DNA of 64,000 nucleotides from Prorocentrum cordatum (GCA_963575745.1 CAUYUJ010000001.1:1488001-1552000); one strand, 5' to 3'; shown: positions 22,561 through 53,848, counted from the stretch's first letter. Notes: generated by a model not told the origin, from the sequence alone. Program-made: numbers and translations.

Positions 22561-22909
22561 AGGATGCGATGGGGGCCATTTCGAACAGGCCCCAATCGGT
22601 TTCCCGGAAAGGGGGGCGGATGTTTCCAGTCAAGCGACGGTGGATCGCGCTCCCTCATGCGCGTTCGTGTTCCCAGGCATTCGCCGATGTTTGTTTTTTC
22701 CATGCCACGCCCCATAGGTTCCGACCACTTGATCTCGGCCAGCTGTTCGCACCCGGTTTATTTTTGATAACCCAGGGCCCAAGAGGCCCACCAGTTTTTC
22801 GCACCAGAGGCCCACCACAAGAAGAAAACGCGGGCTGAAACATTCTCTTCAGCAAAACAACCGAAGGGCAGCAAAGGTGAAGAGGCAGGTCGAGGAGGTG
22901 GAGGTCGGC

Positions 22910-37362: not shown

Positions 37363-38016
37363 CATTGCACTTGTTATCCAAGGGCCATGCGCAGGGAAAA
37401 AAGGTAAATCCACGTCTTGAAAGAGCTGAGTTTGTTCGTTGAGCGCTGCAGCGCTGCAAATTTTGCATTTTGATTTGGAGTCGGTGTCCTGGATTTTTGC
37501 TCTAAATATGAGAAGCGCTGCAGCGCTGCCTTCGGATTTATATGAACATGGAGCGCTGCGTGCGCTGAATATGAAGCGCTGCAGCGCTGAAGGTTGAGTT
37601 AAATGCATGTTTTCTAGTTGCGCGTTGTTCGGATCTTCATTTTCGCCCAGCTCCGTTTGCATGGAATTTGAATGCACATGTCAATTATGTTTTGTTGTAT
37701 TCGTTGTTTTTTCAATGGTCGCATTGAGCGCTGCAGCGCTCCAAATTTGATAGCACGTATGTTACTTTGCGCTGCAGCGCAAAAAAATGGTTGTCGTCGT
37801 GATGTCGCATCGCGCTGCAGCGCGTGCGCGCTCGTGCTTCATGGGCCTCGGGCTGCAGCCCAGATCAACATTTTTGCTCGCAAGTTGCATGTCCATGCAA
37901 GTCGATGTTCACGCGCACGCCGCGCGACAGCTTGTCTCAAGCTGCGGCCGCGCGCCGCATCCGCCGTCGCGCCCGCGGGCTCGCACGTTGCATTCGGCGC
38001 TATATATAGCGCTGGC

Positions 38017-40893
38017 ATGGCGCTGCAGGCGCGTCAGGAGGAGCAGATCTTGCAGTACACCGAGGAAAGCAATTCCTCGGGGAGGTTGGCATCGGGGTGG
38101 GATCAACTGAAGGAGTTCCTGCTGGCGGAGGGGCTAGCGCATTACCAGCAGGCCCCACCGAACCAGATGGGCATCGACATTCGGAACCGCAGCGGTTCGT
38201 TAGTGAACCCTGCGCGGGCTCACAATTTAGGCGCGAAGATTTGCGCCCAGGGCTTCGTCTTGGCCAAGACGGCTGCAGCCGCTGCCTTCGAGGCCCCGCA
38301 GGGGGCGCAGTTGGAAGAGACCGCGATGGCGAACGACCGCCTTTCGCGGCTCAGCGGGGGTCGGTGCCCCCCGCTGGACTCATTGCGGTATACGTCAGTG
38401 GGCGGCTCCCACACGAACGTCTTCCTCCGCTGCGTGCTGGCCAAGGCGCCGACCACAGTGAAGGCGCTGGCAGACTCTCGGGACAACATCGACTCCGAAA
38501 AGCTGTGCGCGTTGCATCCGCAACTTGCGACGGCAGTCAAAAAGGGCCTGACGTGGTTGATCATCAAGCACGCGGTGGCCAAAGTGAAGGGCCTCAAGAA
38601 CTTCGTGCAGAGGGCTTTGAACGCCGACGTCAGGGAGGCGGTTCACGAGACCGAGATCATTCGGTCAGGCTGCAGCCTATCCCCACTATAGTATATAGCG
38701 GTATGCAGTAAGGACCAGGATGATGCACGAGGAGGGTGATGAGTGGGAGCGAGTTGGGGAGGAGGTGAGAACGAGGAGCAGGAGCATTATATCTTACCGT
38801 GCTGCAGCACTTGATCGGATCGGCGCTTGCTGCAGGCAGGTGGGCGGATGCTCTTGGCACACAGCCTCGCTGAGGGTTCCAGCAAGCCCGATTGGCGCGA
38901 CATCGCCGAGCAAGCGGGCCACGCGAACCCACCTTGCAAGGCGTGGATCGCTGACTTGTGCAAGTTTGTTGAGCTCGGGCCACAAAACGGAGAACTTCTC
39001 CGTGAAATAGATGAAGCCCTCAAGACCTTCACGAATGTGGACGTCTCGGGGCAAACTTTGATGTGCGGCTCTGAATTCTGGCGCAAGTTGAATTCGATTA
39101 AATGGGGGAAGCACCAGGAGTCGTACCCGTATGTCGTAGCGGCGCTCGTGAAGGCCAACTATTCAGGCGAGCACGTGGTGGATAGCATGTGCAGGACCAT
39201 CCATAAGCTTGTCGGCGCCCCCTTGTAGTGACATGCGCTGCAGCGCATCTATGCATTGCGCTGCATTGTTAGAACTGCGTACCCACCCCTCCCCCCTCCC
39301 CACACACACACACGCACCGTTACATTGCTTTATTCCCAAACGCAATCGCTGAAGCGATGGGCGGATCAAGGCAAACGAGATCGTCCACGTCGCGTCCCGC
39401 AAGGCGGACGTGGCTGCGGCCGACAACCTCATGGCCGACGCAAGGTCGCTCGTGAAGAGGTTGGATATCGGAGCGGAGCAGGGCTTCTTGCACATCACAA
39501 AGTTGGATGTCCGCTGTGCCATGTACCTGGTGAAGAAGCGAGCGCCAGGAGACCGCGCTTTCGGATGCGTAGCAGATATAGCACAGGTATCTTCTCACGC
39601 CACCTTTCGTGTGCTCCTTGCTTCCCTCCCTCCCTGCTTTTCGCCATTCAATGTCGCTGCAGCGACCCTCCAGGGAGGTCTTCCTCCATGTGCTCGGGGA
39701 GCCAGCCCAGCTGCAGATGAAGAGCTTGGGGATCGAGTTCGGCAAGGCGGTGCAGACCGACAAGCAAGGCGATGGCGCACCCGAGTTCCCAGCGAGCGCC
39801 GATGCAGACGCGCCGCGCGCGGCAGCGTCGTCGGCCGCTGAGTTGAAGAGCAACGTCTTCCGCATGCGGCGTGCAGGGTTCGACGTGGGGGAGCACATCG
39901 TCCAGAAGAAGGAGGTGGATGACGTCTTCGAGGTGCTCTCCGTCTCGGAGGATGGGATCACCGCTCAGAAGAAGTTGCACGGCGACCTGGCGGGCGAAGA
40001 GATCTCCATTGCGCGGCTGCAGCCACCCCGCCGCCCGCGGGGAGCAGGGAGGGGGGAGGGGGAGGTAGTAACTGCGATATTGTATTTCCTGTACTTAGGT
40101 TGCAATGGGTTGGTCGATGCGCTGCAGCGCACGGAGCAGTTAGCCGAGCGGGCGGATTGAAGTAAACATATTGCTCGAGAATTACAAGTTGACGTCCAGG
40201 GTGCAGGAGCAGTTGCCGTTCACGAAGGAGCACTTGCCGCCAGCCCACGAGGGTTGGGCGATGGGCGCGTTCAAGGGGGCATGCAACATGGCGCTGCGGC
40301 CCCAAGCGCTGAAGTACCAGGCGAACATTTTGCATGCGCTGCAAGCGAGCGTTCAAAGTGGGTGAGCTCGTCAGACTTGTGCTTCCGCAATCGTCCGCGC
40401 CCCCCTCCGACGACGCCGCGCTGCAGCGCTGCGCGGAGGACGAGGTAGCGAGGATTTCGGGGCACGTCAGGCCGTGGCGACGAGGTCAGTGATGTTACCG
40501 ACTGCGCGCCATGTAGCTCCACGCGGTGGGAGTGGTCGCATTTCAGCCTCGTCCACGCGGGTCAGCACGGGCTGCGTTGCGGAGAGCATCTCGTTGGGGA
40601 AGGTTGGCCTCTACGAGTTCTTCGTGGGCCCGCAGTTCGCAGGGCCCCCCGCTGAGGGGTCGCGGGGCCCCGACGCCTTTGTCAGCCCCTTCTGGGTGGT
40701 GGCAAAGTCCGACTCAGAGCCCAACATGGAGCTCCGAAAGGAGACCGTGACGTTCGGGACAGGCGTCAACAAGGTGCAGGTGGGGGTGCCCCAGATGCAT
40801 AACACTTGCGCCCTGTCCGCGGGCGACTTCCTGGTGGTGAAGCCGTGGCCGCGGCTGCAGCCGCGGCCAGCCAAGAAGCTCAGGACGGCCTGA
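38017..40893 (+). CDS. Multi-exon cargo gene A: N-terminal ParB/Srx-like domain, C-terminal degenerate SET-like segment
   Basis: MGIDIRNRSG..VNPARAHNLGAKICAQGF...SVGGSHTNVFLR; C-terminus PFWVV..SEPNM...VPQMHNTCALSAGDFLV. Predicted exons ~38017-38658, 38848-39198, 39365-39586, 39678-40007, 40156-~40357, ~40445-40893. Confidence 0.6.
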
Positions 40894-41387
40894 GCTGGCG
40901 ATATAGAGGGACCACGCGGGAGGATGAGGCAGGAGGGAGGGGTGATGCGGAGGAGGAGGAGGAGGCAGGGTAAGGTTTGGCATAGGGAGGAGGATGAGGG
41001 GGCTTAAGGAGCGGCGAGCGCACATGACGGCACCGAGCGTGGCCCTCCGATTGGTGTAAACAGTGTGCGGGTTGGTGCGAAGTGCGATACTTGCCGCGGC
41101 GCTGCAGCGCGCGGAACGATTCGTTGCGCCAGCATCGTCGCTGCAGCGACTGTACAATATTGGTGCTGACATCAGCCTTTCCCACAGACATGCCGCTGCA
41201 GCGGCTTCGTCATCACTGTTGTGCTCGATGTGATCGTTGCTCTTCGCTTCATCTTTCACATGCGCTGCAGCGCACCTCATCATGAGCACCTCGTCCGCGC
41301 GCATGTTGCCTCATCACTCCATCGCAGCAATTTTGGCGCTGAAGTGCGACCGCGCTCGGGCTGCAGCCTCGGCGCGCCGCGCGCGCG

Positions 41388-42152
41388 ATGGCGACGATCA
41401 AGCGCGACTGCGTCGTGTTGCACGACAACCGTACGGGGCGCGAGCTGGTCACGGCCGTCGAGGTCATCGGAGACCGCGAGTGCATCACCGTGACCACCGC
41501 AGGTTGGAGCAAGTGGGTGTGCGGCAAGGCTCAGGGCTTGCGAGGCACGATGTTCCTAACGTGGCTGAAAAATCAGCGCGCCGCGTCGTCGGGGCCAACG
41601 GCGCCGACGACGCTCTTCGCTGCAGCGGAGCCAGGCCGCCGCCCGACCACGCGGTCCGGCCGCGCCAGTCGCCAGGTTCCAGTGGACAAGTGCTTCAAGA
41701 CAGTGCAGCTGCCGCCGTTTGGCGATACGGAGGCAACAGAGCTGCAGATTGTCATTCCCCCACCTCATAGGGGGGGGGGGGACAAGCTGCAGGTGGTGCT
41801 GCACGAGAAGGGCGTAGAGTACATCAAGGCCAAATTGCTTCAGGAGGCGGCGGAGGCGGCAGAGGCGAGCACGGTGCTGAAGCGCCCGCGGCGCCACGAG
41901 ACCGACGTTCCTTGCGGCACCCGCATCTATTGGGTGCAGCGGCTCCAAGCTTGGCGGGCCGTCCGCACAGACTGCGGTTGCAGCAGGACGGCCTTGTTCC
42001 GCACAAACCGCGGCTGCAGCAAGGATGACGCTGAAGCGGCCGCGGCGAAGTGGTGCACCGCCGAACTCAAGGATTGCGAAGCGGATGAGCTCCAGGAGAT
42101 GGAAGCGGAGGCGGAGGGCGATGCGGAGGAGGAGGAGGCCGACTCGGACTGA
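41388..42152 (+). CDS. Cargo gene B, 254 aa, C-terminal AP2-like DNA-binding domain and acidic tail
   Basis: Intact ORF; RIYWVQRLQAWRAV...RTALFRT...KDDAEAAAAKW fits the AP2 beta-beta-beta-helix pattern; LKRPRR basic patch. Confidence 0.6.
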   Translation: MATIKRDCVVLHDNRTGRELVTAVEVIGDRECITVTTAGWSKWVCGKAQGLRGTMFLTWLKNQRAASSGPTAPTTLFAAAEPGRRPTTRSGRASRQVPVDKCFKTVQLPPFGDTEATELQIVIPPPHRGGGDKLQVVLHEKGVEYIKAKLLQEAAEAAEASTVLKRPRRHETDVPCGTRIYWVQRLQAWRAVRTDCGCSRTALFRTNRGCSKDDAEAAAAKWCTAELKDCEADELQEMEAEAEGDAEEEEADSD

Positions 42153-42662
42153 GCTGCGGCGCGCTCGGTCGACCGCATCGCTGGGGCGTGCGATCACGGT
42201 CGGCAGTGCGATTGAGAATGGCAGCGAGGAGGACGAGCACGAGGACGAGGGCGAGGAGGAGAAGGAAGAGGAGGATTGGGATAATAATTGCGGATTGTTG
42301 GTGGATCCCCCCAATGTTCGCTACTGTTGGTGTCATTGCGAATCGTTGGTATGATCAAGCGTGCTGCAGCACGACGACACTACGATCAAGTGTGCCTCTC
42401 ACGCGTTGCCGCCGTCGATGTGTGACCTCACGGCGCTGCAGCGCTGACTTACGTTTCGTGTGTTTGGAGTCCATCGTGCTGCAGCGCTGATTTACGTTCG
42501 GGTGTCTGGCGTGCCGATATCAGATTTTTGCGTCGCGCTGCAGCGCTGACTTACATGTTGTGTGTCTGGCGTGTTGATGTAGCGCTTCGATCGCGCTTGC
42601 AGCCCGCATGTTCGCTTGATGTTATTGCATGTGGTTCGCAGCCACCTGTGATCAGAACATCA

Positions 42663-43016
42663 ATGGCTGCCAACATGAGTGCAGCGACGCCGCCATGGCG
42701 GCTTCCCTCGGAGCCAGCGCCGCCGCCGAAGGCGAAGTCCGCGGCATCGGATGCGACATATGCGGCTACCCCCCCTCCTCCGCCGCCGCCGCCGCCACCG
42801 CCGCCTCCGACGTCGACGAGGACCGCGGCTGCAGCCGCCAGTGATGTGCCAGCCCCGCGCGCGGCTGCAGCCGCGCGCAAGCGCGATGCTGAGACCAAGG
42901 TTGGCATGTGGAAGCTTGTGTGCGACATGATTCGGGAAGCGCTTCAGCGCGGGGGCCGCGAGGCAGCGGTTGCGCTGGCAGTCCAGTGCCACGTCGCGAA
43001 GAAGCCGCGGAAGTGA
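42663..43016 (+). CDS. Cargo gene C, small Pro-rich hypothetical protein
   Basis: ATG 42663; C-terminal helical segment KVGMWKLVCDMIREAL...KKPRK. Confidence 0.45.
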   Translation: MAANMSAATPPWRLPSEPAPPPKAKSAASDATYAATPPPPPPPPPPPPPTSTRTAAAAASDVPAPRAAAAARKRDAETKVGMWKLVCDMIREALQRGGREAAVALAVQCHVAKKPRK

Positions 43017-44089
43017 CGGGCGCGCGGCGCGCGCGCGGTCAGTGCTGCAGCGCCACTGTTTCAGTCGGAGACAGCATCGCGACGGCGGCGACGGCGACAG
43101 AGACAACGACGACGGCGTTAAAGACGACGTAATTCAGAGCAGTGCATGCAGGAGAAGAAGGTGGAGGGAGGATGATGATGAGGAGGAGGAGGGTGATCAG
43201 GAGGACGACGACATTGAGGACGACGTTCTGGAACGCCCTCATTTTCACAGGTTCCCACCGCTCGCTGCCAGCACCTCGGAGCAGGGGAAGGGGGAGCAGG
43301 ATGATGATGATGATGAGGAGGAGGAGGAGGAGGAGAAGGAGGCCGAGGACGAGGAGTATGACGAGGAGGAGGAGGAGGAAGACAACCAGTTGGCACCCAT
43401 GCCCCGCCCCCCCGATCCTTCTGCCTATTCCTGCCTCCGCATACTCCCTCTCCTCCTCCTCCTCCTCCTCCTCCTCCTCCTCCTCATCCTCCCTCTCATT
43501 CTCCTACTCCTCCTTCTCCTCCTCCTTCTCCTCCTCCTCCCTCTCCTTCTTCTCCTCCTCATCCGTGTCCTCCTCCTCCTCCTCCTCCTCCTCCTGCCCC
43601 CCCTCCTCCCCCCCCTCCTCCTCTCCCTCCAATCCTCCTCCCCCCCCTCATCCTCCTCCTCCTCCTATCCTGAGGGGGCAGCCCTGGGGAGGTCAATCCA
43701 GTCGTTGGCCTTCGGAGGTTCAGTTGGGGGTGATGTTACTTTGCGGGGTGATGTTACTTTGGGGGGTCAGTCGACTGGTTAGCAGGGGTCCATCGTCGTC
43801 AGCGTCGTCGCCATCGTATTCGTCGTTGGCACCGCCGCTGTTTTTGTTCCGTGCAGCTGCAGCTGCAGCTTCGCGCGCTGCAGCGTCGCGCGCCCGCGCG
43901 CCCGAGTGCAGCTTCAGCTGCAGTGATGGGACTGGTTTCCACCACCACTACCATATGTTGGAGAAGGAGGAGGAGGAGAAAGAAGAGGAGGAGGAGGACC
44001 TCTCCCTCCAACTTATGGTACTGGTGGTGGAAACCAAGCCCATCATGCAGCTTGGCGAGCTGCAGCTTCGCTCGCTGCATCGCGCAGCG

Positions 44090-44653
44090 ATGGCGTCGCA
44101 GCTCGACTACGACGAGGACGCCGGGGAGTTCGCCGTCCTGCGGCCGACGCCGCCTGCGGCGCCGCCGCCAGGGTTCGAGCCGTGGGACCCCGCGGTCGAG
44201 CTCGCTGCCGCCAAGGCGCGGCCGACGTCGCGCGCCGCCCCGTACGGCAAGGGCGGCAGCGACGGCCCACCTTGCAAGGGCAAGGGCAAGGGCAAGGACA
44301 AGGACAAGGACAACGTCGGCGGCCCACCTTGCGGCAAGGGCAAGGGCAAGGACAAGGACAAGGACGGCGGCGGCCCACCTTGCAAGGGCAAGGGCAAGGA
44401 CAAGAGCAAGGGCGGCAAGGGCAAGCTTGTCCGCGACGGGGACCAGCAGCAGCGGCGTGACGGCTGGTTCAACAGGGCGCAGCAGCTCTGCGAGCTGCTG
44501 CTGGCGGGCGAGTACGCCGACGCGGCCGCCCTCGCGGAGGAGTACTACGCTGGCCCAGCACAGGTCTGGGTCGGCGCTGGCGCCGAGGAGGCCGCCGAGG
44601 AGGCGCAGGCGCCCGAGGAGGCGCTGAGGAGGCCGCCGAGGGGCGCCTCATGA
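44090..44653 (+). CDS. Cargo gene D, hypothetical protein with GGPPCKGKGKGKDK repeats
   Basis: ATG 44090; strongly GC3-biased codons; C-terminal RRDGWFNRAQQLCELLLAGEY. Confidence 0.55.
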   Translation: MASQLDYDEDAGEFAVLRPTPPAAPPPGFEPWDPAVELAAAKARPTSRAAPYGKGGSDGPPCKGKGKGKDKDKDNVGGPPCGKGKGKDKDKDGGGPPCKGKGKDKSKGGKGKLVRDGDQQQRRDGWFNRAQQLCELLLAGEYADAAALAEEYYAGPAQVWVGAGAEEAAEEAQAPEEALRRPPRGAS

Positions 44654-45936
44654 GGAGGCCGCGGAGGAGGCCGCGGATGAGGCCGCGGAGGCGGAGGCGG
44701 AGGCGGCCGCCGAGCGCCGAGGGCGCGCCGAGCGCCGAGGGCGGAGGCGGCCGCGCCGAGCGCCGAGGGCGGAGGCGGCCGCCGAGCGCCGAGGGCGCGC
44801 CGCCGAGCGCCGAGGGCGGAGGCGGCCGCCGAGCGGCCCCTGGCGCTGCAGCGCCCGCATGCATGCGCCCGCATGCGGGCGCCACATGAGAGCTGCGGCG
44901 CGGCCGCGGAGCATTCCACTACTGGTGGGCGACGGAATGGGACGGTAACTCAGTAGAGGTAGACAGGGGGAGAGGGGGGACTATAGTAGAGGTAGACAGG
45001 GGGGAGACGTGATATACATAGGGAATGCGAGGGGGACGATGGAGACGCAGCGTGGGGGTGGAGTGAAGACACATTGGAGAGAGACGGTAGACAGGATGCC
45101 CGCTGCAGCGGGTATCCACTCTCCCGTGAGCGAGGGGGACAACGAACGCATAGTGATAGGATACATGCTGTAGCAACCCAACATGTAAGATCAATGGGAG
45201 CAATGGGGGGGTGGATTGGATCAGTTCGCGAGCATAGCTGACGCCGACGCATGCATGTGTTTAGGCCAGGTTATATTTCGTGCGCCAGATCGCGTGGTGC
45301 GCCCGCGCTGTCGCCCAGAAAGGCGCTCCGATATCCTCATCACATCTATCTGCCATCGTCGACGTTCACATCCTGATCCGCTGACATTTTTTCGCATGGA
45401 CTGATGTGCCAGGGGTCGGCCTTGGATTGGCCAGGAAAGTTTGGGGGCACTTGGGGGGGTCCTGGGGCACTTCAGATGGCAAGCCGTCTCGCATCGCATC
45501 GCCCTTCGCCACTCTCCCTGCCCCCCTTCAGCACAGTTCGTTGCGCCGCCGAGTAGCCCCCCCCCATGGCCTCCTGACAGCCTCACCAGCCCCCATCAGC
45601 CTTGTCCTCAGCAGTCTCGAGCCATCGCGACGCTGCTGCAGCAGAACCGTGAGCGTAAATCTTTGCAGTTGACAGCGGTTTCGGCATCGTCAACCTCGTC
45701 GCGACGCTGCTGCAGCAGCGCCGCGTGATGTACTTCGCGCCTCTCTTAGTTTCACTCCCACCTCGAAATCAGCAGTGTGGACAGTGTTCTGGGACTGCGT
45801 GGGTGGGCGTTGGGGTGGGCTGGAGTGCTGGATGTTGGCATCAGGATGGCTGATCTGAGGTCGAACGGGAGCTTCGGGTGAAGCGATCTGAGAGCGTCGG
45901 TGCCCCTCTGCAGAGGTGATGCTGTCTGACAGCGGC

Positions 45937-46087
45937 GTGTCTGTTCAATAGCCCCCTCTATTGAACAGCCACGCCCGTGTCTGTTCAATAGCCCCTTCTA
46001 TCGAACATGCCATGTTCAATAGCCCCCTCGATTGAACAGCCACGCCCGTGTCTGTTCAATAGCCCCCTCTATTGAACAGACACGCCC
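45937..46087. repeat. Four tandem ~40-bp hairpin repeats
   Basis: CTGTTCAATAG-CCCCCT-CTATTGAACAG at 45941 and 46052, with variants at 45981 and 46013. Confidence 0.9.
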
Positions 46088-46915
46088 CTGTCGATGTCCC
46101 AGCTGCCTTCGAGGCTCCCAGATCGCTTCGGTATTTGCTCCTGATCGCACTTCGCGCATCTCCTGAATCCGTCCCGCGCCCTCCTCGGACACCTTCCGTG
46201 TCCCTCCTGTGTCTGCCCGCCCGCCCGCTCCCGAGCTCCCGTGTATACCTATCCGTCTCCCGTGTCTCTCCCGCGTCTCTCCCGTGCCCCTTCCGTGTCT
46301 CCACCTGCCTTCCGTGCGCTCCCGCCCGTGTCCCTCCGCACCGCTCCCGCGTCCGTCCGCCCGCTCGCCCCCGAACTCCCGTGTCCCTCCCGTGTCTCTT
46401 CCGTGCCCCCCCCCCCCGTGTTTCTCCCATGTCCCTCCCACCCCTCCGTGTCTTTCGCACCGTCCCTTCCGTGTTCCTCAAATGATCATGCATCCCCCCC
46501 CCGTGTCCTGCCCGCCCGCCCGCCCGCGCTCGTGTCCTTCCCTCCCGTGTCTCCTCGCATCTCCCCCCGCCCCCCCCCCCCCCCTCCCCCCCGTGTCCCT
46601 CATTATCTCCCTCCTCTCCTTTCCATCACTCTATATCTCTCTCCCTATTGCCCACTACCATGCGTTCCATCATGGTGCGCATGCATAGCGCTGCAGCGCT
46701 TCATGTTACTTTGTGACGATGATTTCTGCTGAGCGCTGCAGCGCTCACGTGTGTTCCTTAATTGCATGCGATCGTTGCGCTGCAGCGCATCTGTACTGTT
46801 GTGGCCTCTCTTCCACCTCAGCAGCCGAGTGCTTCAGCTCTCGCAGTGTGGGAGGCCCTCCCTCGCGCTTCCCCTCGGAGCGTCCGCGCACCCCCTCGCC
46901 CTCGCGGAGGGCATC

Positions 46916-48777
46916 ATGTCTGCCGCGGCTGCGGCCACACCCATCAACCACATCCTGGATAACCTGGACAGCTGCGACGCCTTCTTCGCATCGCAGATCG
47001 GCGTCATCGCCGCCGACGCGATGGCGCAGAGCCAGTCCGCCTTGTCCATGAGCGTGCAGCTGCAGCTTCACAACTTGGGGACGATCGGGGCTGCCCAAGC
47101 AGCTACCCTGCATAATCGAATCACCGCGTCGGGCTTCGCGGACAGCCACAAGGCGCGCCTCAGCGCCGCGCTGGCCGCGCGCGTGGGCACGGCGACGCCC
47201 GCGCTCCAGATGCGCGTGCAGACGCTCGCGTCAGGGCGGCGCTATCCATCGTGCTTTGCACATCGGACCGCCGAAGTGTTATTCACATGTATGGTTTAAT
47301 TGTTTGTTCTGTACTTTATGTATGTTACCATGTTCATGTTTCAAATGTACTTATGTTATCATGCTGCAGCATGCCTGCGTCGATTCGTAGGCTGGTGGAC
47401 TTTACCATGCAGGACTGGGGTTTATTTCGCGACCCCAACCAGAGCGTCGTCGCGAAGGTGCGCGCGTTGATCAAACGTTGCGGTGCCATCGGCTTGACGG
47501 TTCCGAGCGGGAACACGCTGAAAGAGTTGGCGGCGTTGATGGCATGCGCCCATCTTCCAGACGCAAACCCTGGGCAGCTCTACGGGATCGTGACGGAGAT
47601 GAAGGTTTGGGATTCGGCGGGAACGCCTAACGCAGACGCATCGCATCGCGCTGACTGCAGCCAATGCGACGCGGCGCGTCAGCGTTAGGGTTTCCCGACG
47701 AGTCGCCCTTTACAGGGTCAGTTCTTGGCGAGCCGCAGGGGCGCGACGGGGCAAGCGGCGACAGTGACTTGGAATTTCCCAGCAGATCCTCGGCAGCTCC
47801 CTCAGCACATCTTCGACGCGGCGTGCACCGATGCGGACCCGCCGATCGATGTGACGCGCGACCTCGCCAACGTGGCATCGCATCTACGAGGCTGCTGCCA
47901 CCCCGTCATGCGCTGCAGCGCTGATTGTTCTGGATGTCTTGGGTGCTTCGGTGAGCTCGGTCCTTTAGGTCCACCTCGCATAGAGCATGATAGGTTTCAT
48001 GCTACGCGTGCGCCGCTGAAGCGGCCTGCGGGTCTCAACGCCATCAAGGCTCGCGTGCCTCTCAGGCTGACCAACAAGGGCTTGCGGGCTGCCGCCCCAC
48101 CGCATCAGCCGAGCACTGCCATTGTGCCATGGACACCATCGGGGTCACCCTCCGTGCCGCCTGCAGCGCCAATGCAACCCATGGACGCGATGGCCGTGAT
48201 GCAGCAAATGCTGGCAGCGTTTGCGCCACCGCCATCGCCGCCCAACGAGCTGCAGCTGCAGCTCTTCCCGCGCCGCTCTGCGGCGCCCACGGCGAGCCCC
48301 CCCGCGAGTCCCCCCGCGATTGGTGATTCGCCAGCTGGGCCAGCATTGCCAGCGGCGGCGCCAGATGCTGCTGCAGCAGCGCCAACGCCGCCAAACGAAG
48401 ATGCTGCTGCAGCAGCAGACGGAGACGAGGATGCTGTGCTGCAGGCGATCGAGACCTTGGCTGCGGGCAGCGCGAAAGGCGAGCTGCCTCGCAAGGGCAA
48501 GGGCAAGGGCAAGGGCAAGAAGGGCAAGGGCAAGAGCGCGATCAAGGGCAAGAGCAAGACAGGCGCTGGCAAGGGCAAGACGGCGGCCAAGGGCACGGCC
48601 AAACCGAAGGCCAAGGGCAAAGGGAAGGCCAAAGCCAAGGCCAAGGCCAAGCCCAAGGGCAAGGCGGCAGCCAAACGGGGCCAAATGGCACTCGGGTGCA
48701 GCAAATGCCGCTACCTGCCGAATGGCTGCGGCACGTGCCGCGACCCGAACTTCACTGGCCGTCGCGGCAAGCCGTGA
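46916..48777 (+). CDS. Multi-exon cargo gene E with Lys/Ala-rich tail and terminal CxxC-x6-CxxC motif
   Basis: Exons join via a plausible GC-AG intron (acceptor 47390) and a GT-AG intron (acceptor 47715: EMK|GQFL); ends KGKAKAKAKAKPK...LGCSKCRYLPNGCGTCRDPNF. Confidence 0.6.
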
Positions 48778-49517
48778 GCGCGCAACGGGCACTGTCGGCA
48801 TATGGAGGTGAGGATGAGGATTATGAGGGCGAGGAGGAGGATGGGGAGGATGATGAGGAGGATGAGCATGTGGAGGAGAAGGAATGAGGAGGATGGTGAG
48901 GATTAGTGCGAGGTTGGATGGAACGCTGGCCGGTGATATGAACGGTAGTGGCGATGGTCTTGCCTGGCGGTCGCGCGGCTCGCACGGACGACGAGGAGGA
49001 TGAAAGTCAAATATGTTGACGGGTTCTCTTGGATGTGGGCGCTGCAGCGCTGGCGCCTTTGTGTTCAACGTTTGCATCGCCATCATGATCACGATGCAGC
49101 GCTGCAGCGCTCGCTTTCCTGGATGGTGGCGTAGATATTGCGTGCTGTTGTGTTCCGATGCAGCGCTGCAGCGCCTGTCAGACTTGTGGTGCCGTTGTAG
49201 CGTTGGCGCGTTTGTGAGTGTGCAGTTGCAGCCGCGGTGTCCATGTATTGCGTGACGTGCTCGTCTTGAGTGCCAGTCGTTCCTCGTCGATACGCGCTGC
49301 AGCGCCATCATTCGTGATGTCGAGCGTTGTCTCCCGCGTGGTTGTTGCCAAGTCACGCGCTGCAGCGCTGTGATTCGCTCATGTTGCGCGTTGCCGATGG
49401 CATGCCCTCCTCCCCCTCCTCCTCCTCCTCCTCACTTGGCTCGCGCGTCGCAGCCGCCATCGTTCGCTGCAGCGGGTGCTGGCAACGGACCTCCTCCGCC
49501 TCCTCACTGGGCTCGCA

Positions 49518-49948
49518 ATGGCGGCGCGCCGCTGCGACAAGCCGTTCGAAGCGCAAGCGCGCGCCGACCGTCGCGACGAGTTGCGCGAGGCCCGCGCGAG
49601 AGCGACGGCGACTGCTACAGCAGAGGTGAAGGAGGCGCGGAAGAACGCCAGGAAAGCGGAGAAGCAGGTGCAGATCCGCACCGCGGAGCTGCAGGTGGAT
49701 GAGGAGGCGGATGAGAAGGAGGACGGTGGGGTTCATGAGTGTGGCAGGCTACTCCCCCGCTGCAGCGGGGGAGAAGGACGACAGGGGGGATGATCAGGAG
49801 GAGGTGGAAGGCGATGATGTGGGAGGATGAGGAGTATGAGTAGCAGGGTCGGGGTCAGATGGACATCGCCGCTTCGGACGTGGCCAACCAGAAACTCAAC
49901 GAGGCGTTGACCTCGCTGCGGAACGCCAAGAAGATGAAGGTGACCTGA
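49518..49948 (+). CDS. Cargo gene F, two-exon small coiled-coil protein
   Basis: ...IRTAELQ|GT...AG|MDIAASDVANQKLNEALTSLRNAKKMKVT*. Confidence 0.45.
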
Positions 49949-50626
49949 GTGAGGTCGGCCTCGGCGACCGCCTGCTGAAGCATGCTGGTTCGATTGATTG
50001 GTAAAGGCTGGAGGGAACGTGGTTGAGCGTGTTGTTTGAGTTGCGCTGCAGCGCTTCTCCGTGGACCACGGTTGAAAGTTTGCGCGCGGATCATGATGTG
50101 TTAATGTGTTGCGCTGCAGCGCAGTTTCGCTTGCAGTTTCTCGTTGGATGGTGATGTGGCGGATGATGAGGGCGAGTGATATTGATGCTGTTGACGATGA
50201 AGGTGATGGTGACGGGGAGGATGAAGGGACGGGAGACGGATGATGAGGAGGATGGGTAGGTTGAGGAGGAGGATGGGGAGGATGAGGGGGCGCATGAGGC
50301 GGAGGAGGAGGAGGAGGGGGAAGAGGAGGAGGAGGAGGTATAGGAGGGGGAGGAAGAGGAGGAGGACGAGGGGGATGGCGAGCAGGATGGAGGAGGAGGA
50401 GGACGTTCGCGCTGCAGCGCGTCAGATTGTCATCATTGAACGTTAGCGGCGCTGTAGCGCCATGTGCTCCCAGACTGTTGCTTGGCAGTTAGCGCTGCAG
50501 CGCGCATTTGGTTGCTCTCCACGCGGTGCAGCCTCATTTCCATCCGTAGTCGCCGTGGCCCCTAGCGGAGGGGCCCCTCCGCGCGCGCGCAGCGACGGAG
50601 GCAAGCTTGCCTCGGGAACGCGCGCG

Positions 50627-51135
50627 ATGGCGGCAGAGGACGACCGCCCAGCGAAGCTGCGGCGGCTGTCCCGCCTTCGCGCGGAACTGCCATTCATGCA
50701 TTGTAATGCGATGGCGCAATTCCTGGCGTCCGTTAAGCGAGACGGAATCCCCGAATTGGGATCCCGACGCCAGGATATCAGAGACGCTCGGGAGCTCATG
50801 GTCGGTGAGAACACGCCGTGCGGCAAGCTCCACCAGAACATGATAGTCGGGCAGCACACGGTGGAGATCTGCAGTCCAGCAGCAATGCTGTGGTATTGCA
50901 GCGCCCTCCCCGCGATGCAGCCTCTGTGGCAGCGGGCGCTGGAGCTGCCACGCCCGTGGCACATCATCATTTACGGCGATGAAATAGGCGCTGGCAACGC
51001 GCTGGCGCACGTGCAGAACCGCAAGTCCTGGGGCATCTACTGGACGATCGCGGAATTCGGCCCGCAGGCGCTTTCGTCGGAGGACTTTCGCGATAGCGTT
51101 GCTGCAGCAACGATATATGCGGGGGGGGAGGGGGG

Positions 51136-51218
<83 letters not shown>

Positions 51219-53123
51219 CGAGAGAGAGAGAGAGAGGCGCTGCAGCGCCAGTTGTGCTGCGATTTGTTCGCAGGATGCGTGGTTCCAGCTCGCGACGATG
51301 CGGGCCAAGACCGCGAACGACATCCAGCCGCACGGACTGACGATGCTACTGGACGCAATCCTCGCGCAGTTCTGGCCTGATCAGGGGCGCAACTTCAGCG
51401 CAGGCATCAGCTTGCGGCTGCGCCCCGACGGCGCGACGGAGCTCATCCAGATGGACCTCGGAATTTACATGCAGCCGCTGCAGCGGTCGCCGCATAGCAC
51501 CCAAGATTAGTTAGCTTACATGTGCACATGTATATATCCATTACGCCTTCTTGCGTCGCTGCAGCGGCTCTGTCGGATCGCGGACGAGGATGCAATGCAC
51601 CGCTTGATCGGAATGAAAGGTTCGTCAGGAATCAAACCATGTTTTATGTGCCGCAACGTGTTCTTGAAGGGCGAAGTTCGGGATATAGTTGCTTCTGATG
51701 CGACGGGTGTCGCTGTTCACCACTCGGAACCAGATGCGTCGCGGCTGCAGCCGATGACGGCGCCGTTGCTCGATGCCATCTGCAACAGATTGATCGAAGG
51801 GGTCAACATCATGAACAAGGGCGAGTTCCAGGAGTTGGAGCGCCGACTCGGCTGGAACTGGGACCCCCATTTGCCTGAGCGGGTTCGGAAACTCAAGCCG
51901 CTCGAGACAGTCATGTTTGATTGGATGCATTGTATTTTCGTCAACGGTACATATAACATTCTGGTGTTCCAAATGTTTCGAAGGTTGAAGGGTTACTGGG
52001 CGCGCGCAGACGCATATTTCCAGGACTGGTCGTTTCCAGGGCGCCACTCCATCTCCCCCGACACGTGCGCGATCTTCGGCGAGAAGCGCGTGAGGTCCCA
52101 CGTTGACAGCAAGCATTTCAAGTGTACCGCCAGCGAGGGGCTCACAACCATGCAAGTATCATTGCATGCTTCGCGCCCCCGCCAGACCAATAATACATGC
52201 GCTGCAGCGCACGTGAATTTCTGTAGGATATGTACTGCACCCCTCTTGTTCGGACATGCGTTCGCGCGGGCGGATTGACGTGTTTCTTCAGGGAGGTGGC
52301 TAGCGACGCTGCAGCGCCTGCAGTCCGATCGGCTTGCGCAGTGTTCGAGGCGCACACGATCGTTGTGGAAGAAATCCTACGAGTATCCAGGCGTCAGGCA
52401 GACGCGGATAAGCTGCAGGCTGCGGTTAACAGGTTTTTGCTGTCATACAGCAGCGTCTTTGGCAAGGAAACGATGGCGCAGAAGTTCCATTACCTGCACC
52501 ACTTCGCCAACTACGTGAGGCGTTGGGGCCATGTGGCGCTGCCGTCGTGCTGGGTTTTGGAGCGCAAGCACAAGACCAGCAAGCGCTTTGCGAACGCTCT
52601 TCAGGTGGGGGCTGCAGCCTCCAGCGGCTGGGACGCCAATGTCCTGAAGAGCGTCACCGAGCGGCACCTGTGGCAGCTCATGGATGGCGGCACCTTTAAG
52701 GTTAACTGCCTGGTTAACGCCACCAGGCCGTCCAAGGCCATCTCGCGCGAACTGCTGCAGCAGTTCGGGCCTGCGGACTTTGTTACGTCCGCTGCAGCGC
52801 GGCGCCGCTACCACGACGTCAAATACGGCGACGTCGTGCTGTTGGAGGACGGAGGAGGGGAACACATTGCGGCCGAGGTGTTGAAACACCTCTCCTTCAC
52901 CAAGAACGGCCACTACTATGGCTTGAGCTTGGTCCTGCCCTACTTCTTCAAGGAGAAGCTGCACCCGCGCGCCTCCGCGCACGTGCTTGGCGGCGATGCC
53001 GACGCCTTTTGGGCGCACACGGCGAGCATCGTGTGCTCGCTCGCGTGGGCGCCGCGCGAGGGCGGCGGCATCCGAGCGGCGCGCCCGATATGGTCGCAGC
53101 CGCGGTGGTGCGCTTTAGCCTAA
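50627..53123 (+). CDS. CMC/EnSpm-family DDE transposase, four predicted exons
   Basis: IIIYGDEIGAGNAL..RKSWGIYWTI; ADEDA..GMKG...PCFMC; FDWMHCIFVNG; KFHYLHH...RRWG...CWVLERKHK. Intron 1 is GA-AG at 51083-51273 (LSSE|DAWF). Confidence 0.85.
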
Positions 53124-53848
53124 AACGTGGATTCCTTACTGGCGCTGCAGCGCACTTTTTTACATTGCTAAATGCTTCGGTGCTGCAGCACCTGAACGTT
53201 GCATGGTCGACGACTCCTCTTCTCCGCCTTGAAAACGTGGATTCCTTCTGCATTGCGCTGTAGCGCACCTTTTTCATTGACACTTCGGTGCTGCAGCACC
53301 TGAACAGTGCATGGTCGCCGATTCCTCTTCTCCGCCTCGTTCCTCCTCCTCCTCTTGCGCTGCAGCGCTAATGTCGTTGATCAGTGGTGCGGTCGTTCAA
53401 ACTCCTCCTTCCCCGCATCCTCCCCCTTCTCCCCCTCCTCCTCCTGCTCCTACTGCTGCTCCTCCTCCTCATCTTGCCCCCCCTCCCCTTCTCCTCTCCC
53501 CCCCCCCCCCCCTCCATCCTCTGACGAGGGTGGCGTGTGGGGGGGGGGGAGGGGGGGGCGAAGGGGGGGGGGGGGGGGGGGGGAGGAGGAGATTAAAGGG
53601 GGGGGGGGAAGGGGAGAGGAGGAGGAAGAGGAGGAGGAGGAAGCACGAGGAAGGAGGAAACGACGAGATAGCTCAGAGCGAGAGGAGGATGGGAGGGGGA
53701 TGGGGGGGGCGGGGGGGGGAGGCGGAGGACGAGGAGGAGGAGGAGGAGAGAGGAGGAGGAGGAGGCATGGGGAGGAGGCTGAGGAGTGGAGAGAGAGGGA
53801 GGAGCTAGGGGTAGGAGGCAGGTGGAGGAGGAAAGGAAGGAAGGGGAT

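What the first reader, a model, noticed from the sequence alone, without database searches (positions are those of the whole stretch)
38659..52273. Five putative non-canonical introns with AT...CGG|AT boundaries
Seen: at four points where coding sequence resumes in frame the DNA reads the identical 8-mer GGGCGG|AT (38842, 39359, 40150, 52268), and a fifth reads TGTCGG|AT (51571). Each has an upstream Y|AT in matching phase. Removing 38659-38847, 39199-39364, 40008-40155, 51469-51576 and 52158-52273 gives HETEI-MLLAH, MCRT-IKANE, GEEIS-IEVNILLENYK, DLGIY-IADEDA and EGLTTMQV-LTCFFREV. Known: dinoflagellate introns are mostly GT/GC/GA-AG|G. Inference: a separate intron class, or introner-like inserts with an AT duplication, coexists with canonical introns in the same genes. 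Caveat: canonical alternatives exist for each (e.g. HKL|ANEI, TTMQ|VASD), so this is unproven.
Basis: partly seen in the sequence, partly recalled or inferred. Interest (0 to 1): 0.8.

Follow-up and report, generated by a model that had tools for sequence, protein, structure and literature searches.

The report
Non-canonical AT-bounded introns in transposon genes
Two, and probably five, short interruptions in the genes of a large jumping gene of the red-tide dinoflagellate Prorocentrum cordatum have to be cut out at AT...GG|AT borders that carry none of the usual splice signals, so standard gene finding misreads these genes.

Summary

**Setting.** The window is Prorocentrum cordatum. The five sites lie in two genes of a ~16-kb transposon-like element (37.4-53.4 kb).

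**I4 and I5 (transposase-like gene).**
- A profile of 81 distant full-length relatives aligns without a gap across both.
- Two metagenomic relatives with uninterrupted ORFs read straight through both sites.
- None of 151 in-frame GT/GC/GA-AG alternatives scores as well (9.7 bits or more lower).
- A 63%-identical relative (L001) keeps both introns at the same places, with the same AT...GG|AT borders and conserved ends.
- The exons show dN/dS 0.19, so the gene worked with these inserts present and they must be removed.

**I1-I3 (gene A).** The evidence is indirect: the identical 3' octamer, matching frames, and conservation in relatives that stops at the proposed I2 border. Canonical alternatives cannot be excluded there.

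**Limits and verdict.** No RNA could be examined and the removal mechanism is unknown. The closest precedent is the non-canonical 'introner' introns of Amoebophrya. This scan noted similar introns elsewhere in this genome. Verdict: partly supported, a new variant of a known kind, interest about 0.6.

The parts
37445..53366 (+). About 16-kb transposon-like element that holds both genes. It is studded with the palindrome GCTGCAGC (consensus GCGCTGCAGCGC).
   Evidence: 73 of the window's 75 GCTGCAGC lie here; 3.01 are expected in the whole window. Near-identical DNA sits in contigs of 4 of 4 public DNA runs laid. Protein hits name Prorocentrum cordatum.
38017..40893 (+). Gene A, function unknown. 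Proposed exons: 38017-38658, 38848-39198, 39365-39586, 39678-40007, 40156-c.40361, 40547-40893. This copy lacks 29 bases after 40334 that three other runs have, which shifts the frame.
   Evidence: Open frames. No Pfam family and no Atlas hit. Relatives of exon 2 at 64-73% identity. 29-base insertion in X1, X8 and X3 contigs (table 4).
38659..38847 (+). I1, candidate non-canonical intron (189 nt): C|ATTCGG...GGTGGGCGG|ATG. The junction is not independently confirmed.
   Evidence: In relatives the frame upstream of MLLAH reads ...AAAGAR|MLLAH. The public model P0011 instead uses GC(38669)...AG(38839)|G, giving IIRS-GGRM; relatives do not exclude that.
39199..39364 (+). I2, candidate non-canonical intron (166 nt): C|ATCCAT...GATGGGCGG|ATCAAG, with direct repeat ATC.
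   Evidence: In three relatives conservation ends exactly at MC[RK]T. The next four codons differ in all four residues (IHKL against SYQP or RYQP), which argues against the canonical IHKL|ANEI model.
39587..39677 (+). Intron X of gene A, canonical GT...AG|G (91 nt), phase 0. Inferred from frames only.
   Evidence: Sequence and frames.
40008..40155 (+). I3, candidate non-canonical intron (148 nt): C|ATTGCG...GAGCGGGCGG|ATTGAA, with direct repeat ATTG. Its 3' octamer GCGGGCGG is complementary to CCGCCCGC at 40031-40038.
   Evidence: A 2-base insertion after 40039 is present in part of the copies in 3 of 4 runs (table 4), as expected of non-coding DNA.
40362..40546 (+). Candidate canonical GT...AG intron Y of gene A, phase 1 in copies without the 29-base deletion. 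Inferred.
   Evidence: Sequence and frames.
50627..53123 (+). Transposase-like gene, 693 aa once three introns are removed. Exons: 50627-51082, 51274-51468, 51577-52157, 52274-53123.
   Evidence: The spliced model matches positions 3-677 of a 684-position profile of 81 distant relatives at 592.5 bits. The family has 1025 representatives at E<=0.001. No Pfam family. Atlas lead to clusters partly carrying Plavaka PF18759 (38% of members, score 0.93).
51083..51273 (+). Intron Ic, canonical GA...AG|G, holding a (GA)n microsatellite and two palindromes.
   Evidence: The profile aligns ALSSE|DAWFQ without a gap. The uninterrupted ORF of L002 reads NLGREELWFE there.
51469..51576 (+). I4, non-canonical intron (108 nt): TAC|ATGCAGCCGCTGCAGCGG...CGCTGCAGCGGCTCTGTCGG|ATC. 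The cut may equally lie 1 or 2 bases to the right. Two palindromes form a 13-bp helix close to both ends.
   Evidence: 78 of 79 spanning homologues are gapless over the junction. The L002 ORF is continuous there. The best of 24 canonical pairs scores 9.7 bits lower. Kept in L001. Helix.
52158..52273 (+). I5, non-canonical intron (116 nt): CAAGT|ATCATTGCATGC...GCGCGGGCGG|ATTGACG. The cut may equally lie 1 or 2 bases to the right.
   Evidence: 81 of 81 spanning homologues are gapless. The L003 ORF reads ...LVPVFMCFFQ against ...TMQV|LTCFFR. The best of 127 canonical pairs scores 12.2 bits lower. Kept, also 116 nt long, in L001.

Best explanation
The five stretches are genuine intervening sequences in two genes of a large DNA transposon of Prorocentrum cordatum. 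They have to be removed from the transcript exactly at a short AT-starting direct repeat, so that the removed piece reads AT...GG and is followed by AT. None of them uses the dinoflagellate rule G[T/C/A]...AG|G.

**Shown by comparison.** For I4 and I5:
- Uninterrupted relatives carry a single AT at the very site.
- A relative whose synonymous sites are near saturation (dS about 1.5) keeps both introns with the same borders and conserved stretches at each end (19 of 20 and 16 of 18 bases at the 5' ends).
- The exons stayed under purifying selection.

**Inferred.**
- I1-I3 work the same way. They share the octamer GGGCGG|AT with I5.
- The inserts began as small mobile elements that landed at AT sites, in the layout of dinoflagellate introner-like elements: the first copy of the target repeat starts the intron and the element's end is the 3' border. 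They lack the G-start and the AG-end that normally provide splice sites.
- Removal is at the RNA level and is guided by the conserved intron ends rather than by GT-AG. In I4 it may be helped by a helix between two palindromes.

**Open.** Whether the ordinary spliceosome or another activity does the cutting.
For: (1) Junctions.
These were all 81 of the 150 listed representatives that are >=450 aa and rank below the 14 closest proteins.
- The two canonical I5 models score 569.1 and 568.5 and need an 8-residue gap.
- Of all in-frame, stop-free GT/GC/GA-AG pairs within about 100 nt (24 for I4, 127 for I5), the best reach 582.8 and 580.3.
- 78 of 79 (I4) and 81 of 81 (I5) homologues that span the sites are gapless over the 16 residues around the junction.

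(2) Uninterrupted genomic ORFs. L002 aligns RLGCILSDELA to DLGIY|IADEDA. L003 aligns ASELLTLVPVFMCFFQ to ASEGLTTMQV|LTCFFR, with no gaps near either junction. Their DNA reads TGC|ATC and GT|ATTC, a single AT at each site.

(3) Relative L001 (63% protein identity).
- It has introns at both places: TAT|ATGCGG...103 nt...GGAGG|ATT and GT|ATCATGG...116 nt...GTGCGG|ATTGG.
- There too the AT...GG model scores best: 594.3 against 588.5 for the best of 189 canonical pairs.
- Exon DNA identity is 66%. Intron interiors have diverged, while the ends are kept: 19 of 20 bases at the 5' end of I4 and 16 of 18 at the 5' end of I5.

(4) Selection. dN/dS is 0.19 over 686 codons and 0.09-0.29 in each of the four exons; pS is 0.65.

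(5) Motif. GGGCGGAT occurs 4 times on the coding strand of the element against 0.61 expected; 3 of 1000 shuffles reach 4.

(6) Gene A. Conservation in three relatives stops at MC[RK]T, and all four following codons carry replacement changes. A 2-base indel polymorphism lies inside I3.

(7) Public gene models. Six P. cordatum copies give six different models at I4 and I5, and none matches the family. The published pipeline allowed only GT, GC and GA donors (PMC10666404, passages read).
Against: - No transcript was seen, so removal is inferred.
- Protein-level evidence cannot fix the cut to the base. Joins shifted by one residue cost only 1.5-6.2 bits, though none of them is canonical either.
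- In L001, I4 has a canonical GC...AG|G alternative that adds one residue and costs only 5.8 bits. The window has CG where L001 has AG. I4 may therefore once have been canonical, and this copy may be a mutant.
- L001 carries a 1-base insertion in exon 3, and the window's gene A lacks 29 bases. Individual copies, this one included, may be dead.
- For I1-I3 there is no homologue across the junctions. The public model P0011 uses a canonical GC...AG|G at I1, and relatives are compatible with it.
- In relatives the first two bases after MC[RK]T are most simply AG, not AT. The AT start is therefore not universal.
- The five introns share no overall similarity. Pairing between intron ends exceeds shuffles only in I4 (2 of 500 shuffles) and in L001's I4 (19 of 500), not in I1, I2, I3 or I5.
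Confidence: 0.68

Rival explanations
1. Mixed picture. I4 and I5 are non-canonical as above. The three gene A interruptions are ordinary introns spliced at nearby canonical sites: I1 GC 38669...AG 38839|G, I2 GT 39211...AG 39370|G, and I3 one of many pairs. On this view the shared octamer is a conserved sequence near the 3' splice site, not the border.
For: - In-frame canonical pairs exist: 40 for I1, 27 for I2 and 65 for I3.
- P0011 and P0012 use IIRS-GGRM.
- GTCGGCGCC after IHKL is kept as VGA in relatives, as a conserved GT donor would be.
- Relatives can carry an AG|G eight bases before ATG at I1 if one Ala codon is GCA.
Against: - The same kind of good-looking canonical alternative at I5 (GT...AG|G, used by P0006) is rejected by homology.
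- Under canonical models the octamer sits at inconsistent distances from the acceptor: inside the exon at I1, 4 nt upstream at I2, tens of nt at I3.
- IHKL against SYQP is 0 of 4 identical in an exon that is 64-73% identical.
Confidence: 0.2
2. Dead copies. The stretches are insertions of small mobile elements, for example Helitron-like ones that enter between A and T. They are never removed, and these genes are pseudogenes.
For: - This copy of gene A has a 29-base deletion, and L001 has a frameshift.
- The target is a single AT.
- 2 of 5 inserts begin TC after the A.
- Several have a hairpin 6-11 nt before the 3' end.
Against: - The inserts are shared by lineages whose synonymous sites are near saturation (pS 0.65, dS about 1.5). 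All four exons stayed under purifying selection (dN/dS 0.19) and the spliced frame is intact over 693 aa.
- The intron ends are conserved while the interiors are not.
- The 3' ends read CGGA, not the Helitron CTRR (recalled consensus).
Confidence: 0.08
3. All five are canonical introns and the public-style models are right. The fit of the family alignment to the AT...GG joins is coincidence.
For: Canonical pairs are available at all five sites in the window. The annotation pipeline used transcripts where available (PMC10666404).
Against:
- In relative P0003 the AG of the TTMQ|VASD acceptor is replaced (its frame there reads G-I, which leaves no AG at that place).
- Six public models of the same gene disagree with each other.
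Confidence: 0.03
4. Removal is not by RNA splicing. Instead it is either DNA excision bounded by the AT repeat (as in ciliate eliminated sequences) or ribosomal bypassing between matching codons.
For: 2-4-base direct repeats bound every insert. At I2 and I3 the repeat is an in-frame ATC or ATT codon on both sides.
Against: - DNA contigs of four runs bridge I1, I4 and I5 with the inserts in place. No joint at these places is among the 15 listed of 25.
- At I1 and I4 the flanking codons differ, and I5 is in phase 2, so matching take-off and landing codons are absent.
- The inserts are 108-189 nt long.
Confidence: 0.01

Closest known systems
Non-canonical introns and 'introner elements' of Amoebophrya A25/A120 (Farhat et al. 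2021, PMC7789003; passages read)
   Same: Introns without GT-AG in a dinoflagellate. Short direct repeats overlap the exon/intron borders. In some (I4, and weakly I1 and I3) inverted repeats pair the two intron ends. A transposon-like origin is proposed, and they coexist with canonical introns.
   Different: - Here the host is a free-living core dinoflagellate, and the introns sit in a transposon's own genes.
- The borders are uniform (AT...GG|AT, with a shared GGGCGG), not highly variable.
- The direct repeats are 2-4 nt, against 3-5 nt.
- Two of the five have no end-to-end inverted repeat.
- There is no RNA support here.
Introner-like elements of Symbiodinium and Polarella (Roy et al., preprint 10.1101/2020.10.14.339549; passages read)
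   Same: The layout is the same: one copy of a short target-site repeat forms the start of the intron, the element's end is the 3' border, and the second repeat copy starts the next exon. Precise removal restores the uninterrupted coding sequence.
   Different: In those elements the repeat is GHNN (or AGGH) and the element ends in AG, so splicing is canonical. Here the repeat starts with AT and the element ends in GG. Those families have hundreds of similar copies; the five here share only their ends.
Identical repeated intron boundary of Crypthecodinium cohnii (Mendez et al. 2015, PMC5032977; passages read)
   Same: 2-9 bases are repeated at both borders, so the exact cut cannot be placed.
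   Different: There the repeat always contains GG or AGG and fits U2-type sites. Here the repeat is AT(N) and lies after GG.
Introner elements reported in the P. cordatum genome paper (Dougan et al. 2023, PMC10666404; passages read)
   Same: Same organism. Introns there were flagged for 8-20-nt inverted and 3-5-nt direct repeats near their ends.
   Different: They were sought only inside gene models built with GT/GC/GA-AG sites. Introns without those sites could not be called.
U12-type AT-AC introns (recalled consensus /ATATCCTT...AC)
   Same: The intron begins with AT.
   Different: There is no ATATCCTT box (the 5' ends read ATTCGG, ATCCAT, ATTGCG, ATGCAG, ATCATT). The 3' end is GG, not AC. 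Alveolates are said to lack the minor spliceosome (PMC7789003).

Membership tests
Canonical dinoflagellate spliceosomal intron (G[T/C/A]...AG|G) | Intron begins with GT, GC or GA | tested here: not met
   At the homology-supported junctions of I4 and I5 the intron begins AT. In the two equivalent registers it begins TG/TC, or GC/CA. No register gives both a G-start and an AG end.
Canonical dinoflagellate spliceosomal intron (G[T/C/A]...AG|G) | Intron ends with AG and the next exon starts with G | tested here: not met
   The ends are CGG|AT at all five sites. The best canonical pairs lose 9.7 bits (I4) and 12.2 bits (I5) against the family profile. For I1-I3 this is inconclusive.
Amoebophrya-type non-canonical intron / introner element | Borders other than GT-AG, shown by transcripts | not testable with these tools
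   The borders are supported by homology only. No RNA run was available.
Amoebophrya-type non-canonical intron / introner element | [quoted passage not shown] | tested here: inconclusive
   13 nt in I4 and 8 nt in I1 and I3. I2 and I5 have none between their ends. End pairing exceeds shuffles only in I4 (2 of 500 shuffles) and in L001's I4 (19 of 500).
Amoebophrya-type non-canonical intron / introner element | Direct repeat of 3-5 nt overlapping the borders | tested here: inconclusive
   AT in I1, I4 and I5; ATC in I2; ATTG in I3. That is 2-4 nt, so only 2 of 5 reach 3 nt.
Dinoflagellate introner-like element (Roy et al.) | Target-site repeat whose first copy starts the intron, with the element's end as the 3' border | tested here: met
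   Uninterrupted relatives have a single AT at both sites. The window and L001 have AT at the intron start and again after the intron.
Dinoflagellate introner-like element (Roy et al.) | Repeat GHNN and element end AG, which supply canonical splice sites | tested here: not met
   The repeat starts with A and the element ends with GG.
Dinoflagellate introner-like element (Roy et al.) | Many similar copies in introns of other genes | not tested
   No genome is held. The five share only their ends. The one other GGGCGGAT in the window is not at an exon border.
Helitron (non-autonomous); consensus recalled | Insertion between A and T without duplication; 5' TC; 3' CTRR; hairpin about 10 nt before the 3' end | tested here: inconclusive
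   The A|T target is compatible. 5' TC is present in 2 of 5. The 3' end is CGGA, not CTRR. A hairpin or palindrome lies 6-11 nt before the end in I1, I2 and I4, but not in I3 or I5.
U12-type AT-AC intron; consensus recalled | 5' /ATATCCTT and 3' AC | tested here: not met
   no such box, and the 3' end is GG.

The most novel reading that the evidence does not exclude
Core dinoflagellates have a second, undescribed way of defining introns. It recognises conserved intron-terminal sequences (Y|AT... and ...GCGG|AT) instead of G[T/C/A]-AG. It can therefore remove mobile elements that landed at AT sites, even from the genes of an autonomous transposon, and has done so stably while synonymous sites went to near saturation. 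If this is general in P. cordatum, a sizeable set of published gene models is wrong, and the Amoebophrya oddity becomes a dinoflagellate-wide trait.
Probability: 0.3. Interest if true: 0.85.

Novelty: new variant of a known kind. Interest (0 to 1): 0.62.

Why it matters
A 2024 review states that borders other than GT/GC/GA-AG are known among dinoflagellates only from Amoebophrya (PMC11453091, passages read). My five literature searches found no report of such introns in a core dinoflagellate.

If these introns are removed as the comparisons require, three things follow:
- The relaxed splice rules built into dinoflagellate annotation pipelines are still too strict. Six public models of this one gene are all different, and none matches the protein family.
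- Transposon-derived introns can persist without acquiring GT-AG.
- I5 is a clean test case: two conserved ends, a 116-nt insert and a known product. It can be used to ask what machinery defines such borders.

It also shows that an autonomous DNA transposon can carry and inherit this kind of intron.

Tried and rejected
- **RNA.** No RNA holder was listed among 24 runs. The four runs laid were DNA-type contigs. They keep the inserts, and no joint at the five places is among the 15 joints listed of 25. Transcript evidence could not be obtained.
- **Whole genome.** None is held.
- **Viral contigs.** Two scans found no relative.
- **Metagenome scan with gene A exon 2.** 594 pattern matches, no relative.
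- **Prokaryote genome scan.** One weak 39-residue hit in a Dehalococcoidia MAG, taken as chance and not followed.
- **Protein families.** Pfam gave no family at threshold for 13 window pieces, and none for 4 long homologues. The Atlas gave nothing for gene A.
- **End-to-end RNA helix as a common rule.** Rejected. Only I4 and its L001 counterpart exceed shuffles. Whole-intron folds are not unusually stable (z from -1.9 to +1.2).
- **One shared element family.** Rejected. The five align only at their ends and at the palindromes.
- **IRE1-like cutting at the two CTGCAG palindromes of I4.** It would remove 81 nt in the window but 76 nt in L001, which is not frame-preserving there (worked out).
- **U12-type introns, ribosomal bypass, DNA excision.** See the rival explanations and membership tests.
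- **More AT...CGG|AT junctions in the element.** Apart from the five proposed junctions and 38816 (inside I1, in the frame of the next exon), the other 12 of 18 CGGAT sites do not open a long frame soon after a stop.
- **Other genes of the element compared with L001.** One further intron (about 47255-47350) is bounded by a direct repeat. The repeat is TCGTGCT in L001 and TC[G/A]TGCT in the window. It has no conserved canonical site. I could not fix its junction without a distant homologue.

Full report
**What is there.**
- GGGCGG|AT stands at 38842, 39359, 40150 and 52268, and TGTCGG|AT at 51571.
- Each proposed 5' border is a pyrimidine followed by AT.
- Over the whole window and both strands the octamer is not enriched (5 against 4.74 expected).
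- On the coding strand of the 16-kb stretch that holds four copies it is enriched (4 against 0.61 expected; 3 of 1000 shuffles reach 4).
- The fifth copy, at 22614, is in non-coding repeats.

**Setting.**
- Protein hits name Prorocentrum cordatum, and the G+C content fits the 59.7% reported for it (PMC10666404).
- All five sites lie in a region, 37445-53366, that holds 73 of the window's 75 GCTGCAGC palindromes (3 expected).
- Near-identical DNA occurs in contigs of all four public runs that I laid.
- The region carries several genes. Two hold the finding: gene A (38017-40893, no recognisable family) and a transposase-like gene (50627-53123).
- The transposase-like protein belongs to a large unnamed family: 1025 representatives at E<=0.001 and no Pfam model. 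An Atlas lead points to clusters that partly carry the Plavaka transposase domain (38% of members, score 0.93). The conserved D...D...E-like motifs resemble CACTA/KDZ-type transposases; this is recalled, not tested.

**Test of I4 and I5 by homology.**
- I built a profile from the 81 listed relatives that are at least 450 aa long and rank below the 14 closest proteins. They are 27-42% identical to the query exon.
It matches positions 3-677 of the 684-position profile at 592.5 bits, without a gap at any of the three junctions.
- The canonical alternatives for I5 score 569.1 (TTMQ|VASD, used by the public model P0006) and 568.5 (TTM|EVASD). Both need an 8-residue gap.
- I then listed every in-frame, stop-free GT/GC/GA...AG pair within about 100 nt: 24 for I4 and 127 for I5. 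The best reach 582.8 and 580.3.
- 78 of 79 (I4) and 81 of 81 (I5) homologues that span the sites are gapless over the 16 residues around the junction.
- Joins shifted by one residue lose only 1.5-6.2 bits, so the cut is fixed to within about a codon. None of those neighbours is canonical either.
- Because AT is repeated, three registers (AT...GG, TN...GA, NN...AT) give the same message.

**Uninterrupted relatives.** Two metagenome contigs of a distant branch (28-30% identity) read through the sites in single ORFs.
- L002: ...ARLGCILSDELA... against ...MDLGIY|IADEDA...
- L003...ASELLTLVPVFMCFFQ... against ...ASEGLTTMQV|LTCFFR....
- Their DNA has one AT exactly there (TGC|ATC and GT|ATTC).
- L003 has an ordinary GT...AG|G intron elsewhere. 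That branch therefore splices canonically.

**A diverged relative that keeps the introns.**
- L001 (6088 nt, 63% protein identity) has introns at both places with the same borders: TAT|ATGCGG...GGAGG|ATT (103 nt) and GT|ATCATGG...GTGCGG|ATTGG (116 nt).
- The AT...GG model is again the best: 594.3 bits against 588.5 for the best of 189 canonical pairs.
- Exons are 66% identical in DNA and pS is 0.65.
- Intron interiors have diverged, while the ends are kept: 19 of 20 bases at the 5' end of I4 and 16 of 18 at the 5' end of I5.
- dN/dS is 0.19 over 686 codons and below 0.3 in each exon.
- The inserts therefore predate the split of the two lineages, and the gene stayed functional with them. This is the main reason to call them introns rather than damage.
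- Shorter ORF fragments of relatives at 42-47% identity (P0015-P0018) stop about where I4 and I5 lie, which suggests that the introns are older still.

**Cautions.**
- L001 has a 1-base insertion in exon 3.
- L001's I4 can also be read as GC...AG|G with one extra residue, at a cost of 5.8 bits. The window has CG at that place. I4 may have begun as a canonical intron, and this copy could be a mutant.
- I5 has no such escape in either lineage.

**Gene A (I1-I3).**
- My protein searches found only exon-2 relatives at 64-73% identity and two public models. None spans a junction independently.
- For I2, conservation ends exactly at MC[RK]T. The next four codons differ in all four residues through first- or second-position changes (IHKL against SYQP or RYQP). 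This speaks against IHKL|ANEI.
- The following VGA is kept, and the intron would start with AG, not AT, in those relatives.
- For I1, relatives read ...AAAGAR|MLLAH. This fits ...GCGG|AT but also an AG|G eight bases upstream, which the public model uses (IIRS-GGRM).
- For I3, a 2-base indel polymorphism after 40039 in 3 of 4 runs marks its 5' part as non-coding.
- With relaxed donors, 40, 27 and 65 in-frame canonical pairs exist, so their existence decides nothing.
- The case for I1-I3 is mainly that they end in the same six bases plus AT as I5, where that border is supported.

**Mechanism.** The layout matches that of dinoflagellate introner-like elements: the first copy of a short target repeat starts the intron, the element's end is the 3' border, and uninterrupted relatives carry a single target. 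Here, though, the repeat starts with A and the element ends in GG, so neither canonical site is supplied.
- The two palindromes of I4 form a 13-bp helix four bases after the 5' border and seven before the 3' border, in both the window and L001.
- I3 pairs its terminal GCGGGCGG with CCGCCCGC 23 nt into the intron.
- One compensatory change between the window and L001 fits a similar pairing in I5 (read).
- End pairing is not above shuffles in I1, I2, I3 or I5, so structure is not a general rule.
- All eight introns of the two genes hold at least one palindrome: 10.05 per kb against 1.67 per kb in exons.
- I commit to RNA-level removal guided by the conserved intron ends. Whether the spliceosome does it is open.
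- Earlier notes of this scan (e1-7693999 and e1-7695824) report transposon-derived introns without AG in other genes of this genome, cut out of mRNA exactly at flanking repeats. I did not check them, but they raise the prior.

**Comparison and novelty.**
- The nearest described system is the non-canonical introner introns of Amoebophrya.
- The P. cordatum genome paper looked for inverted and direct repeats only inside models with GT/GC/GA-AG sites.
- A 2024 review lists other borders only for Amoebophrya.
- Five literature searches gave no report for a core dinoflagellate.
- I class this as a new variant of a known kind: uniform AT...GG|AT borders, long-term inheritance inside a transposon's own genes, and a free-living core dinoflagellate as host.
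- Supplements of the papers were not opened. Table S1/S2 of PMC10666404 may list introner counts that bear on how common such introns are.

Noticed in passing
window 37445-53366: The palindrome GCTGCAGC (consensus GCGCTGCAGCGC) occurs 73 times here against 3 expected in the whole window. It is six times denser in the 8 introns of the two genes (10.05 per kb) than in their exons (1.67 per kb), and every one of those introns has at least one copy.
   Followed up: partly
window 40334/40335: This copy of gene A lacks 29 bases that contigs of three other runs (X1, X8, X3) carry. The deletion shifts the frame of exon 5, so this copy of gene A is probably defective (table 4).
   Followed up: partly
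L001 about 4670-4680: The relative's transposase-like gene has a 1-base insertion in exon 3. This is either a frameshift or an assembly error in a T/G run.
   Followed up: partly
window 47255-47350 and L001 about 345-430: A further intron, in the gene at 46.9-48.8 kb, is bounded by a direct repeat in the same codon phase. The repeat is TCGTGCT (7 nt) in L001 and TC[G/A]TGCT in the window. It overlaps a palindrome, and no canonical site is conserved. In L001 the bases before the second repeat copy read GGCGG.
   Followed up: partly
proteins P0001, P0002, P0004-P0007 (public P. cordatum models): Six copies of the transposase-like gene have six different exon models around I4 and I5: read-through, exon skipping or canonical sites. 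None restores the family's sequence.
   Followed up: yes
window 51130-51235: A long (GA)n microsatellite sits inside the canonical intron Ic. L001 has (GC)n-rich sequence there instead.
   Followed up: no
table 3: Differences between this copy and the contigs of four runs are dominated by C>T and G>A. For example, 27 and 37 of 108 changed places in X1.
   Followed up: no
L003 246-391: The distant, lower-G+C relative has an ordinary GT...AG|G intron inside the MFDWMH...G motif region, where the window has none.
   Followed up: partly
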